From Clostridium sp. CAG:1000 (GTDB lineage: Bacteria > Bacillota_I > Bacilli_A > RF39 > UBA660), in the NCBI GenBank assembly GCA_000436975.1, contig HG000336.1, positions 26,519 to 90,518 of the forward strand: DNA of 64,000 bases. Reading direction: 5' to 3'. The position numbers and the translations under genes were made by a program. How positions within the stretch are numbered: the stretch's first letter is position 1; every line of letters begins with the position of its first letter. Below the pieces are notes generated by a model, which was not told the DNA's origin, made no database searches, and saw only the letters and a program-made list of their open reading frames with translations. This document shows positions 62,703 through 63,260 of this stretch, one piece after another.

Positions 62703-62736
62703 AGAAAAAAAGTAAGTAATCAATAATTACTTACTT
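62703..62736 (-). terminator. intrinsic terminator after rplT (overlaps its stop codon)
   Basis: On the minus strand, AAGTAAGTAAT-TATTG-ATTACTTACTT followed by TTTTTTTCTTG. Confidence 0.7.
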
Positions 62737-63260
62737 AATGCTTCAACTAAATCAGCTTTCTTCATAGTTGATTTAACTTCAATGCCATTCTTTTGACATT
62801 CAGCTTTTAATTCAGCTACTGTTAACTTAGAATAATCTTTTTTAGTTTCTACAGCTTTTTCAACTTTCTTTTCAACTGTTTCTTTTTCTTTTTTAGGAGC
62901 TTTTCCTTCTAATGCATCTTTAGAAATTTGAACTAATTTAGTAAATTCTTCTGGTGCGAAGATAGCAAGTTCACTAAGCATTTTTCTATTAATATCAATA
63001 TTTGCTTTCTTAAGACCATTAATGAATTTAGAATAAACTATATCATTATTTCTACAAGCAGCATTGATTCTTGTAATCCATAATTTTCTAAAGTCATTAG
63101 CTCTTTTCTTTCTATCATTATAGCTATAAGCTCCACTATGGAATAATTGTTCTTGAGCAGTCTTATATAATCTATGTTTACTTCCAAAGTATCCTTTAGC
63201 TCTCTTTAATACTTTTCTTCTTCTATTTTTAGATACTATTCCACCTTTAACTCTTGTCAT
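62727..63260 (-). CDS. rplT: 50S ribosomal protein L20 with ~60 aa C-terminal extension carrying a SAP/Rho_N-like motif
   Basis: The N-terminal 118 aa is a canonical L20 (MTRVKGG...LSELAIF). The extension ...[38 protein letters not shown] is in frame with no intervening stop. Confidence 0.85.

What the first reader, a model, noticed from the sequence alone, without database searches (positions are those of the whole stretch)
62727..63260. Ribosomal protein L20 with an in-frame SAP/Rho_N-like C-terminal extension
The ORF encodes a normal 118-aa L20 followed, without a stop, by ~60 aa: …[57 protein letters not shown]. Its last 35 residues match the SAP / Rho N-terminal helix-extended-helix motif (LxxLKxxELxxxAxxxGI…K.dLIxAI). 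The strong terminator hairpin overlaps the new stop. Extended L20s are not usual in Firmicutes, and a nucleic-acid-binding SAP module on a ribosomal protein is noteworthy.
Basis: seen in the sequence. Interest (0 to 1): 0.6.

Follow-up and report, generated by a model that had tools for sequence, protein, structure and literature searches.

The report
Ribosomal protein L20 with tethered HeH domain
This gut bacterium's ribosomal protein L20 really does carry a small, conserved Rho_N/SAP-type domain on a flexible tail; the same add-on recurs on several other ribosomal proteins in different bacteria, is already catalogued for L20, and has no known function.

Summary
Window 62727-63260 (minus strand) is a 177-aa rplT in an infC-rpmI-rplT operon. 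It has a canonical bL20 core (1-118), a K/E/V-rich linker (119-141) and a 36-aa helix-extended-helix module (142-177) that passes Pfam's HeH and SAP thresholds.

It is not an assembly artefact. Seventy-nine of 80 species-level relatives keep linker plus module; these are gut MAGs that include RF39 genus CAG-776. The module is under purifying selection (dN/dS ~0.4), while the linker drifts (~1.0).

The architecture is already catalogued. NCBIfam NF011109 ("L20/unknown domain fusion protein") models the phytoplasma version. Ca. Izimaplasma also has it.

The same module, which scores best as Rho_N, is also appended to bL21 (Flavobacteriia), to uS2 (sometimes in the same genome as bL20-HeH), and to S1, trigger factor and NusB.

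The most likely mechanism is inferred, not shown: a flexibly tethered, low-specificity nucleic-acid (probably RNA) binding module on the ribosome's solvent face.

Verdict: a real but ordinary member of a known, functionally unstudied fusion class. Interest is moderate.

The parts
62727..63260 (-). rplT: complete 177-aa ORF (bL20 core + linker + HeH module) including the UAA stop at 62727-62729
   Evidence: ORF; Pfam and NCBIfam; conserved full length in relatives
62907..63260 (-). bL20 core, residues 1-118
   Evidence: Pfam Ribosomal_L20 3-109, E 2e-44; TIGR01032 1-114, 157 bits; pooled dN/dS 0.23
62838..62906 (-). Linker, residues 119-141 ([23 protein letters not shown]), net charge +4. In relatives it is always present but varies in sequence and length.
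   Evidence: Linker length 10-46 aa in 80 proteins, K 32% / E 21% / V 12%; pooled dN/dS ~1.06; AF2 pLDDT ~48-51
62730..62837 (-). HeH (SAP/Rho_N-type) module, residues 142-177 ([36 protein letters not shown])
   Evidence: Pfam HeH 31.4 bits > 28.9 and SAP 30.1 > 23.9; AF2 tail model has helix 18-27, loop, helix 38-46 with pLDDT 84-89; PDB profile hits to Ku70 SAP and Rho N-termini; pooled dN/dS 0.42
62702..62736 (-). Intrinsic-terminator-like hairpin: 12-bp A/U-rich stem 62710-62736 with a 3-nt loop, containing codons 176-177 and the stop, followed by U-tract UUUUUCUU at 62702-62709
   Evidence: RNA fold -11.5 kcal/mol, z -3.7; not listed by the consensus scan because only 2 G-C pairs
63267..63272 (-). 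AGGAGG ribosome-binding site of rplT, overlapping the rpmI stop codon
   Evidence: read directly from the sequence
63271..63462 (-). rpmI (bL35), immediately upstream in the operon
   Evidence: Pfam Ribosomal_L35p
63477..64000 (-). infC (IF3). The listed ORF starts at an internal ATG at 63944, and the 5' end probably runs on toward or past the window edge.
   Evidence: Pfam IF3_N + IF3_C

Best explanation
This is a genuine, conserved rplT gene whose product has three parts.

(1) A canonical bL20 core. It anchors in 23S rRNA as in every bacterium.

(2) A lysine/glutamate/valine-rich linker. It evolves fast and varies in length, and it leaves the solvent-exposed C-terminus of bL20.

(3) A terminal 36-residue helix-extended-helix module of the Rho_N/SAP/HeH clan. 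It is under purifying selection.

Shown here: the architecture, its conservation, the selection pattern, the predicted fold, and the recurrence of the same module on other ribosome-associated proteins.

Inferred: the module is a flexibly tethered, low-specificity nucleic-acid-binding 'tentacle' on the ribosome's solvent surface, more likely binding RNA than DNA. Candidate RNA ligands are nascent or messenger RNA, or rRNA during assembly. The effect would be to raise the local concentration of RNA at the ribosome, or of the ribosomal protein on RNA. It would not occupy one fixed docking site.
For: Real and conserved.
- More than 120 clusters at 90% identity have the same length (173-183 aa), and nearly all carry precomputed SAP/HeH/Rho_N hits.
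- 79 of 80 species-level genomes have linker plus module.
- More distant L20s (43-50% core identity), including Ca. Phytoplasma mali, aster yellows phytoplasma and Ca. Izimaplasma, end in the same motif.

Selection. Pooled dN/dS is 0.42 for the module, 1.06 for the linker and 0.23 for the core.

Fold.
- The AF2 tail model is helix-loop-helix with pLDDT 84-89.
- The closest solved structures are E. coli Rho N-terminal domain (rmsd 1.7-1.9 A over 36 residues), MANF/CDNF SAP, emerin LEM and FAN1 SAP.
- The sequence profile hits Ku70 SAP (2.7e-12) and Rho from M. tuberculosis (5.4e-7, ungapped).

Generic ligand rather than a fixed site.
- Linker length ranges from 10 to 46 aa within the clade and to roughly 200 aa elsewhere.
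- The same module sits on bL21, uS2, S1, trigger factor and NusB.
- Seven contigs encode bL20-HeH and uS2-HeH side by side, i.e. one module on each subunit.

RNA precedent.
- The C-terminal 40-aa Rho-N motif of Arabidopsis RHON1 alone shifts 16S/23S rRNA fragments and mRNA UTRs in gel-shift assays (PMC3458557).
- The Rho N-terminal helix bundle is positively charged and helps the primary binding site engage rut RNA (PMC11347177).
- The module and the linker are both net positive, with medians of +2 and +3.
Against: - No binding experiment exists for any of these tails.
- HeH domains also bind dsDNA (Ku70, SAF-A type SAP domains) and proteins (the MANF SAP-BiP complex and the T4 endonuclease VII dimerisation domain are among the best structural matches).
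- All Foldseek E-values are above 0.4 because the domain is tiny.
- In Rho itself the main RNA contacts lie in the OB fold, not the helix bundle (my own knowledge).
- One close relative, L025 (87% core identity), has a clean 122-aa L20 with its own terminator. The tail is therefore dispensable in at least one lineage.
- The dN/dS values pool non-independent pairs near synonymous saturation, and the linker alignment is unreliable, so they are rough.
- The solvent exposure of the bL20 C-terminus rests on published ribosome structures recalled from memory. It was not computed here.
Confidence: 0.4

Rival explanations
1. The module is a DNA-binding SAP domain in the eukaryotic sense. It tethers ribosomes to the A/T-rich chromosome and keeps translation close to transcription in small, genome-reduced cells.
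For: - The window protein scores above threshold for SAP and HeH/LEM but not for Rho_N.
- The best PDB sequence hit is the Ku70 SAP domain, which is also a C-terminal module on a flexible linker.
- The host genome is 25.5% GC.
- Other L20 C-terminal add-ons include DNA-binding types: a DpnI_C winged helix and H1-like K/A/P tails.
- A stand-alone copy lies next to a phage capsid gene.
Against: - Across the family the module scores best as Rho_N.
- Carriers are not restricted to AT-rich genomes: the trigger-factor fusion is at 57% GC and the bL21 fusions reach 44% GC.
- The only direct biochemistry on an isolated Rho-N motif shows RNA binding.
Confidence: 0.2
2. The module is a protein-protein interaction or dimerisation handle. 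It could recruit a factor such as RNA polymerase, NusA or a chaperone, or link ribosomes to each other.
For: - The top structural neighbours include HeH domains that work through protein contacts: T4 endonuclease VII dimerisation, the MANF/CDNF SAP-BiP complex and emerin LEM-BAF.
- The module is nearly identical on unrelated hosts in different phyla, and a single conserved protein partner would explain that.
- RHON1 dimerises.
Against: - No candidate partner is encoded next to the gene. The neighbours are Smr, an RsmE-type methyltransferase and a MiaB-like enzyme.
- The conserved positions are mostly lysines and surface residues typical of nucleic-acid-binding HeH domains.
Confidence: 0.15
3. 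The tail is a tolerated, nearly neutral appendage. The bL20 C-terminus is a permissive solvent-exposed site that collects mobile small domains and low-complexity sequence, with no specific role.
For: - bL20 C-termini in other lineages carry many unrelated add-ons: E3_binding, DpnI_C, DUF2188, a lamin-tail domain and H1-like repeats.
- A close relative lost the tail cleanly.
- Ca. Faecenecus L20 has a 78-aa K/T/E tail with no HeH.
- The linker evolves neutrally.
Against: - The module is under purifying selection (dN/dS 0.42) while the adjacent linker is not.
- It is retained in 79 of 80 species and across orders.
- The same module was recruited repeatedly to ribosome-associated hosts: 62 of 80 sampled carriers are bL20, bL21 or uS2.
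Confidence: 0.1
4. The tail serves bL20's extraribosomal role. It would strengthen binding of free L20 to the infC-rpmI-rplT leader mRNA for autoregulation.
For: - bL20 is the autogenous repressor of this operon in E. coli and B. subtilis (PMC10931766).
- An extra RNA-binding module could add affinity.
Against: - No L20 leader (RF00558) was found at gathering threshold upstream of infC in six relatives, although an L21 leader was detected in the same search.
- The same module sits on uS2, bL21, S1, trigger factor and NusB, which do not regulate this operon.
Confidence: 0.05
5. Assembly or sequencing artefact: a single-base indel removed the canonical stop and fused L20 to downstream sequence.
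For: Some database entries of this family are frameshifted (L082), and many long 'L20' representatives are junk read-throughs.
Against: - The extension is in frame and homologous in 79 of 80 species-level genomes and in more than 120 protein clusters from independent assemblies.
- It encodes a recognised domain above Pfam thresholds.
- It is under purifying selection.
- The one short relative has no out-of-frame remnant.
Confidence: 0.01

Closest known systems
NCBIfam NF011109 (PRK14537) '50S ribosomal protein L20/unknown domain fusion protein' (phytoplasma L20)
   Same: Same architecture end to end: L20 core, low-complexity linker, then a C-terminal motif of the type ...L..M.L.DLK.LAK...[IV].N[FY]..LKK.E[IL]I..L. 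Ca. Phytoplasma mali L20 (226 aa) and aster yellows phytoplasma L20 (329 aa) score 377-381 bits. Their tails match an HMM built here from the RF39-type tails.
   Different: The window protein scores 151.5 bits, below the 187-bit cutoff. Only its L20 part aligns well, and the tail alone aligns to profile positions 172-225 at E 0.03. The linker is much shorter (23 aa against roughly 70-170). The host lineage is gut RF39-type Bacilli rather than plant-pathogenic Acholeplasmatales. NCBI labels the C-terminal part 'unknown domain', whereas here it is identified as HeH/Rho_N.
N-terminal helix bundle of transcription terminator Rho (Pfam Rho_N, PF07498)
   Same: Same helix-extended-helix fold and a very similar sequence. 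The family consensus LskmTvaELKalAKekGikGYStmKKaELIeaL aligns without gaps to M. tuberculosis Rho residues 57-89. It is nearly identical to the N-terminus of a true 680-aa Rho found in the metagenome scan (L130). Relatives on bL21, uS2, S1, trigger factor and NusB all pass the Rho_N threshold.
   Different: The module is at the C-terminus rather than the N-terminus. It is not followed by the OB-fold RNA-binding domain or the ATPase, so nothing suggests termination activity. The window copy itself falls just below the Rho_N cutoff (21.9 against 24.9). Phytoplasma L20s carry the module although all 100 Mycoplasmatota species analysed in PMC11347177 lack Rho.
RHON1 (Arabidopsis chloroplast) C-terminal Rho-N motif
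   Same: A 40-aa Rho-N helix-extended-helix module at the extreme C-terminus of an unrelated protein, working with organellar (bacterial-type) rRNA and mRNA. The isolated motif binds 16S/23S rRNA fragments and UTRs in gel-shift assays (PMC3458557).
   Different: The host protein is an RNase E partner, not a ribosomal protein. It is eukaryotic and nuclear-encoded. No sequence comparison with RHON1 was run here.
Eukaryotic SAP domains, especially the Ku70 C-terminal SAP
   Same: Pfam SAP and HeH thresholds are passed. Ku70 SAP is the best PDB sequence hit. Ku70 also carries the module at the C-terminus (residues ~573-605 of 609); that it hangs on a flexible linker is my own knowledge.
   Different: Ku70 SAP aligns with a 2-residue gap in the inter-helix loop relative to the bacterial module. 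It is documented as a DNA binder, and the biological context is unrelated.
Solvent-exposed extensions of Mycoplasma pneumoniae ribosomal proteins (Xue et al., doi 10.1101/2021.12.18.473270)
   Same: Genome-reduced Mollicutes-type bacteria have ribosomal proteins with long, mostly disordered, solvent-exposed C-terminal extensions of unknown function. Such extensions are more frequent in Mollicutes, and uS2 is among them.
   Different: L20 is not among the eleven extended M. pneumoniae proteins, and the term L20 does not occur in the text. No folded HeH/Rho_N end-module is described there.

Membership tests
Bacterial ribosomal protein bL20 (TIGR01032 / PF00453) | Sequence match above the curated cutoff over the whole L20 domain | tested here: met
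   TIGR01032 at 157.4 bits against 65.65, residues 1-114; PF00453 E 2e-44
Bacterial ribosomal protein bL20 (TIGR01032 / PF00453) | infC-rpmI-rplT operon context | tested here: met
   IF3 and L35 lie immediately upstream on the same strand. The same order is seen in relatives.
Bacterial ribosomal protein bL20 (TIGR01032 / PF00453) | Incorporation into the 50S subunit | not testable with these tools
   Needs ribosome purification with proteomics, or cryo-EM. The organism is uncultured.
HeH / SAP / Rho_N helix-extended-helix clan | Sequence match above the Pfam gathering cutoff | tested here: met
   HeH 31.4 > 28.9 and SAP 30.1 > 23.9. Rho_N at 21.9 is below 24.9 in the window copy, but Rho_N is passed by homologous tails on bL21, uS2, S1, trigger factor and NusB.
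HeH / SAP / Rho_N helix-extended-helix clan | Two helices joined by an extended loop (predicted fold) and similarity to solved HeH domains | tested here: inconclusive
HeH / SAP / Rho_N helix-extended-helix clan | Nucleic-acid binding | not testable with these tools
   There is only precedent: the RHON1 Rho-N motif binds RNA, and the Rho helix bundle assists rut binding.
NCBIfam NF011109 'L20/unknown domain fusion protein' | Whole-protein score at or above 187 bits | tested here: not met
   151.5 bits, with the best stretch at 10-141 of the protein. Phytoplasma L20s score 377-381 bits, and two metagenomic L20-HeH proteins score 204-216 bits.
NCBIfam NF011109 'L20/unknown domain fusion protein' | Architecture: L20 core + linker + C-terminal HeH-like motif | tested here: met
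   The tail alone aligns to profile positions 172-225 of 232 (E 0.03). The tail HMM built from RF39-type tails hits P0243, the Ca. Phytoplasma mali L20, at 6.8e-10.
NCBIfam NF051450 'L20, sunset domain variant' | Whole-protein score at or above 375 bits, including the C-terminal 'sunset' domain (profile ~170-219) | tested here: not met
   151.8 bits, and only profile positions 1-149 are matched. The same holds for all other HeH-tailed L20s tested. The sunset domain is therefore a different C-terminal add-on.
Transcription termination factor Rho | OB-fold primary RNA-binding domain and RecA-type ATPase following the N-terminal helix bundle | tested here: not met
   No Rho_RNA_bind or ATPase hit. 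The protein ends with the HeH module.

The most novel reading that the evidence does not exclude
The Rho_N-type HeH module may define an undescribed class of ribosome-surface 'tentacles'. It is a single mobile 36-aa domain, and it has been grafted through disordered linkers onto bL20, bL21, uS2, S1, trigger factor and NusB. The named carriers come from four phylum-level groups (Bacillota, Mycoplasmatota, Bacteroidota, Patescibacteria). It is sometimes present on both subunits of the same ribosome.

In this reading the module captures nascent RNA, chromosomal DNA or the transcription machinery, and so physically couples ribosomes to transcription or the nucleoid. In Rho-less Mycoplasmatota it would be the surviving copy of the Rho N-terminal fold.
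Probability: 0.2. Interest if true: 0.7.

Novelty: new member of a known kind. Interest (0 to 1): 0.4.

Why it matters
For this locus, the result settles that the long L20 is real. It also gives the 'unknown domain' of the catalogued L20 fusion a fold assignment: HeH/Rho_N.

More broadly, the same small module is tethered to several ribosomal proteins on both subunits, in widespread uncultured gut bacteria (RF39-type) and in cultured marine Flavobacteriia. No functional study turned up in the literature searched. If it binds RNA or DNA, it would be a simple, testable device for localising ribosomes or assisting assembly in genome-reduced bacteria.

There is also a practical annotation point. 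At least one public gene table (L081) splits this intact gene and calls the tail a separate 'Rho termination factor N-terminal domain-containing protein'. A second record (L082) shows the same call in an error-containing assembly. That can make a Rho-related gene appear to be present where there is none.

Tried and rejected
- **Literature.** Searches for 'ribosomal protein L20' + 'SAP domain' returned 0 papers. 'Sunset domain' returned only an unrelated paper. 'RF39' + ribosomal protein + extension returned nothing relevant. 'Helix-extended-helix' + ribosomal protein + bacteria returned only RHON1.
- **Terminator scan.** The consensus scan found nothing at the stop, because the stem has only 2 G-C pairs. 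Direct folding was used instead.
- **Stand-alone genes.** The tail profile search mostly returned 31-70 aa 'Rho_N domain-containing proteins', which I first took for stand-alone genes. Of the three NCBI-named ones whose loci could be read, two (L081, L082) are the 3' end of rplT, and only the Salinicoccus prophage copy is stand-alone. Of the two JGI 'L21'-labelled ones read, L085 proved to be the 3' end of rplU. P0366 could not be located.
- **Metagenome scan.** The search for related loci with the tail alignment failed because it was too diverse. It failed again with a 37-aa consensus because that was too short. A 51-aa consensus worked.
- **L20 leader.** I looked for RF00558 upstream of infC in six relatives and in the window, and found none. 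This weakens the autoregulation idea without excluding it.
- **Other hosts in the window.** The window does not encode uS2, bL21, S1, trigger factor, NusB or Rho. Whether this organism also has a uS2 tail is therefore unknown.
- **Structure model.** The full-length AF2 model has low confidence (pLDDT 67, pTM 0.49). It gives no evidence that the module docks back on the L20 core.
- **bL20-bL21 adjacency.** Two papers checked for an explicit statement of this adjacency did not give one. It is cited from general knowledge only.
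Full report
**What is in the window**

It is the third gene of an infC-rpmI-rplT operon: IF3 at 63477 to the window edge, and L35 at 63271-63462. An AGGAGG ribosome-binding site overlaps the rpmI stop codon.

- Residues 1-118 are an ordinary bL20. Pfam Ribosomal_L20 gives E 2e-44, and TIGR01032 gives 157 bits against a cutoff of 65.65.
- Residues 119-141 ([23 protein letters not shown]) are a charged linker.
- Residues 142-177 pass the curated thresholds of Pfam HeH (31.4 against 28.9) and SAP (30.1 against 23.9). They fall just short of Rho_N (21.9 against 24.9).

The last two sense codons and the UAA stop lie in the 5' arm of a 12-bp A/U-rich hairpin followed by UUUUUCUU. 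The fold is -11.5 kcal/mol with z -3.7, and no shuffle folds as well. The consensus scan missed it because it has only two G-C pairs. The window is 25.5% GC.

**Not an artefact**

That is not what is seen.

- A protein search found more than 120 clusters at 81-98% identity. All are 173-183 aa, and nearly all have precomputed SAP/HeH/Rho_N hits.
- A scan of one genome per species returned 80 loci, almost all uncultured gut 'Bacilli', 'Tenericutes' or 'Mycoplasma sp. CAG' MAGs with 22-36% GC. The best, a Hadza gut MAG, is 98% identical.
- Translating them shows 79 of 80 with a linker plus a terminal motif of consensus DlSk.TlAELKa.AKekgvkGYstMKK.ELl.aLK.
- 'Mycoplasma sp. CAG:776' is among them (L015). 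CAG-776 is a genus of order RF39, family UBA660, described as genome-reduced Bacilli (PMC13155120). That the window organism itself is RF39 is an inference from these relatives.
- The single exception, L025 (87% core identity), has a clean 122-aa L20, its own terminator hairpin and the same downstream Smr gene. This is a natural tail-less variant, not a frameshift remnant.

**Selection**

I computed Nei-Gojobori estimates pooled over 2764 pairs of these genes.

| Segment | dN/dS |
|---|---|
| bL20 core | 0.23 |
| Linker | 1.06 |
| HeH module | 0.42 |

 The window versus its 98% relative shows 0 nonsynonymous change in the module, against pN 0.07 in the linker.

These numbers are rough. The pairs are not independent, synonymous sites are near saturation, and the linker alignment is poor. 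The pattern is still clear: the module is constrained, while the linker is kept as a spacer but is free in sequence. Linker length ranges from 10 to 46 aa (median 25.5). Its composition is K 32%, E 21%, V 12%, with median net charge +3. The module has median net charge +2.

**Fold**

An AlphaFold model of the last 47 residues, built with a 105-sequence alignment, gives helix 18-27, an extended loop and helix 38-46, with pLDDT 84-89 in the module.

Foldseek against the PDB returns only HeH-type domains:
- T4 endonuclease VII
- MANF/CDNF SAP
- E. coli Rho N-terminal domain (rmsd 1.7-1.9 A over 36 residues)
- emerin LEM
- FAN1 SAP

All have E-values above 0.4, as expected for so small a query.

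A sequence profile of 31 tails hits the following:

| Target | E-value |
|---|---|
| Ku70 SAP | 2.7e-12 |
| M. tuberculosis Rho residues 57-89 (ungapped) | 5.4e-7 |
| Rho, PDB 8hsj | 8e-6 |
| Rho, PDB 3l0o | 2e-4 |

The full-length model is of low confidence (pLDDT 67). It gives no sign that the module packs on the core.

**How far the fusion extends, and whether it is known**

An exhaustive HMMER search of cluster representatives at 50% identity found 5202 L20-like proteins. About 20 of the best 150 end in the same module, including cores only 43-50% identical with very different linkers.

Two of these are the L20s of Ca. Phytoplasma mali (226 aa) and aster yellows phytoplasma (329 aa). Ca. 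Izimaplasma ZiA1 has one too.

NCBIfam already contains NF011109/PRK14537, '50S ribosomal protein L20/unknown domain fusion protein', which models this architecture end to end.
- The phytoplasma proteins score about 380 bits.
- Two metagenomic ones score 204-216 bits.
- The window protein scores 151.5 bits, below the 187-bit cutoff.

A second model, NF051450 'sunset domain variant', matches only the core and part of the linker. It therefore describes a different C-terminal add-on.

So the kind is catalogued, and its C-terminal domain is called 'unknown'. I found no paper on it. The M. pneumoniae in-cell ribosome study reports eleven extended ribosomal proteins with 'largely elusive' functions. 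L20 is not among them, and no HeH module is described.

**The module is not specific to L20**

I scanned metagenome contigs with a consensus tail and read the ORF around each of 80 matches.

| Host of the tail | Loci |
|---|---|
| bL21 | 23 |
| bL20 | 22 |
| uS2 | 17 |
| other | 18 |

Pfam confirms Ribosomal_L21p+Rho_N, Ribosomal_S2+Rho_N, four S1 domains+Rho_N, trigger factor+Rho_N, NusB+NUDIX+Rho_N and a pyruvate-kinase C-terminal fragment+Rho_N. Two of the loci are a true 680-aa Rho, with a near-consensus module at its N-terminus.

Source names place the fusions as follows:
- bL21 fusion: cultured Flavobacteriaceae (Zunongwangia profunda and five other species) and Flavobacteriales MAGs
- uS2 fusion: gut Bacillota (Ca. 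Faecenecus)
- NusB fusion: Patescibacteria

Seven contigs encode bL20-HeH and, immediately downstream, uS2-HeH. In L094 the two 36-aa tails are 89% identical.

In Ca. Faecenecus uS2 has the module, while L20 has a 78-aa K/T/E-rich tail without it. In the RF39-type locus L014 bL20 has the module and bL21 is a plain 100 aa.

The sample is biased toward consensus-like tails, because exact peptide patterns seeded it. The architectures themselves are nonetheless facts.

**Mechanism**

Shown: a constrained HeH module on an unconstrained spacer of variable length. It is attached to proteins that sit at different places on the ribosome surface or bind to it, and sometimes two modules occur per ribosome.

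From established ribosome structures (my own knowledge, not computed here):
- The bL20 N-terminal half is buried in 23S rRNA, and its C-terminal globular domain lies on the solvent side next to bL21.
- uS2 and bS1 are on the solvent side of the 30S.

These facts argue against a single fixed docking site near bL20. They favour a ligand that can be reached from anywhere on the solvent face.

Precedent points to RNA.
- The isolated 40-aa C-terminal Rho-N motif of RHON1 binds 16S/23S rRNA fragments and mRNA UTRs.
- Rho's N-terminal helix bundle is positively charged and assists rut-RNA engagement.

I therefore commit, at about 0.4, to a flexibly tethered, low-specificity RNA-binding module. It would capture mRNA or nascent RNA, or act as an rRNA chaperone during assembly.

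The rivals and their weights are:

| Rival | Confidence | Main point |
|---|---|---|
| dsDNA/nucleoid tether in the SAP sense | 0.2 | Supported by the Ku70 hit, the AT-rich genome and DNA-binding-type add-ons on other L20s |
| Protein-interaction handle | 0.15 | Several structural neighbours work that way |
| Near-neutral appendage | 0.1 | Tail-less L025 and the diversity of add-ons, but contradicted by purifying selection |
| Aid to L20 autoregulation | 0.05 | No L20 leader detected, and the same module sits on unrelated hosts |
| Assembly artefact | 0.01 | Already refuted |

All 100 Mycoplasmatota species analysed in PMC11347177 lack Rho, yet phytoplasma L20s carry this Rho_N-type module. 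A simple 'replaces Rho' idea does not generalise, because Flavobacteriia also carry it on bL21 and Bacteroidota are listed among the phyla that have Rho.

**Verdict**

The claim of unusualness is overstated. This is the RF39-type member of a catalogued L20 fusion class, now with a fold assignment for its 'unknown domain'. It is one instance of a broader and apparently unstudied habit of hanging a Rho_N-type HeH module on ribosome-associated proteins.

Novelty: new member of a known kind. Interest: 0.4.

Noticed in passing
L081 3641-4177 (JAXKAW010000004.1, GCA_036305765.1); L082 3558-4150 (CP076021.1): The gene table on record lists only the last 58 aa (L081) or 49 aa (L082) as a separate 'Rho termination factor N-terminal domain-containing protein' and lists no L20. 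In L081 the DNA encodes one intact 178-aa L20-HeH ORF. L082 has a frameshift and an in-frame TAA that look like assembly errors. Some or many of the 31-70 aa 'Rho_N domain-containing proteins' from Bacilli and Mycoplasmatota may be similar splits or fragments.
   Followed up: partly
L085 1-399; L089, L092, L099, L129 and about 20 other loci: bL21 carries the same HeH module behind an A/K/P- or K/E-rich linker. The carriers include cultured Zunongwangia species (RefSeq '50S ribosomal protein L21', 159 aa) and Flavobacteriales MAGs. From general knowledge, bL21 is bL20's neighbour on the 50S.
   Followed up: yes
L094 2048-3630, L096, L139, L155, L160, L117, L095: rplT and rpsB are adjacent, and both products end in the HeH module. 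The same ribosome would therefore carry one on each subunit. In L094 the two 36-aa tails are 89% identical, which suggests recent duplication or conversion between the two genes.
   Followed up: partly
L167-L176 (Ca. Faecenecus gallistercoris), rplT 1312-1902, rpsB 2001-2963: Here uS2 has linker plus HeH. L20 is 196 aa with a 78-aa K/T/E-rich low-complexity tail and no HeH. The genes infC-rpmI-rplT-rpsB-tsf are contiguous.
   Followed up: partly
L138, L143, L152, L136, L159, L118 (loci): The same module forms the C-terminus of several other proteins: an S1-repeat protein, trigger factor, a NusB-NUDIX protein (Patescibacteria), a pyruvate-kinase C-terminal fragment, a membrane protein with no other Pfam hit, and a 162-aa protein with a second weak HeH-type match (Ish1) at its N-terminus.
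   Followed up: partly
L025 3001-3369 (CASFKI010000023.1): A close relative (87% core identity) has a 122-aa L20 with no linker or module, its own terminator hairpin and the same downstream Smr gene. This is a natural tail-less variant.
   Followed up: yes
Proteins P0227, P0239, P0261, P0163, P0165, P0259, P0177 (representatives): In other lineages the bL20 C-terminus carries unrelated small add-ons, usually behind a charged or A/P/K-rich low-complexity linker. They are E3_binding (once in tandem), a DpnI_C winged helix, DUF2188, a lamin-tail domain and H1-like K/A/P repeats. NCBIfam also has a 'sunset domain' L20 variant. The bL20 C-terminus seems to be a general attachment point.
   Followed up: partly
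L083 4001-4186 (Salinicoccus albus ARQJ01000012.1); L084: A genuinely stand-alone 61-aa Rho_N-type protein is encoded immediately after a phage major capsid gene, within a prophage head module.
   Followed up: no
window 60937-61632 (-): A 231-aa ORF with a hydrophobic N-terminus and a long glutamate-rich region has no Pfam match. It lies between an RsmE-type RNA methyltransferase (61619-62350) and a MiaB/MtaB-type radical-SAM enzyme (59666-60940).
   Followed up: no
L001, L004, L009, L014, L023, L081 (regions upstream of infC); L014 4899-4966: No L20 leader (RF00558) was detected upstream of infC in six relatives. In the same search an L21 leader (RF00559, 45 bits) was found upstream of rplU in L014. 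How this operon is regulated in this clade is open.
   Followed up: partly
window 62730-62837 (-), residues 153-163: The window species and its closest relatives have a diverged first helix and loop, including a conserved cysteine ([12 protein letters not shown] against the family consensus ALAKEKGIEGYS). This is why this copy scores as SAP/HeH rather than Rho_N.
   Followed up: no
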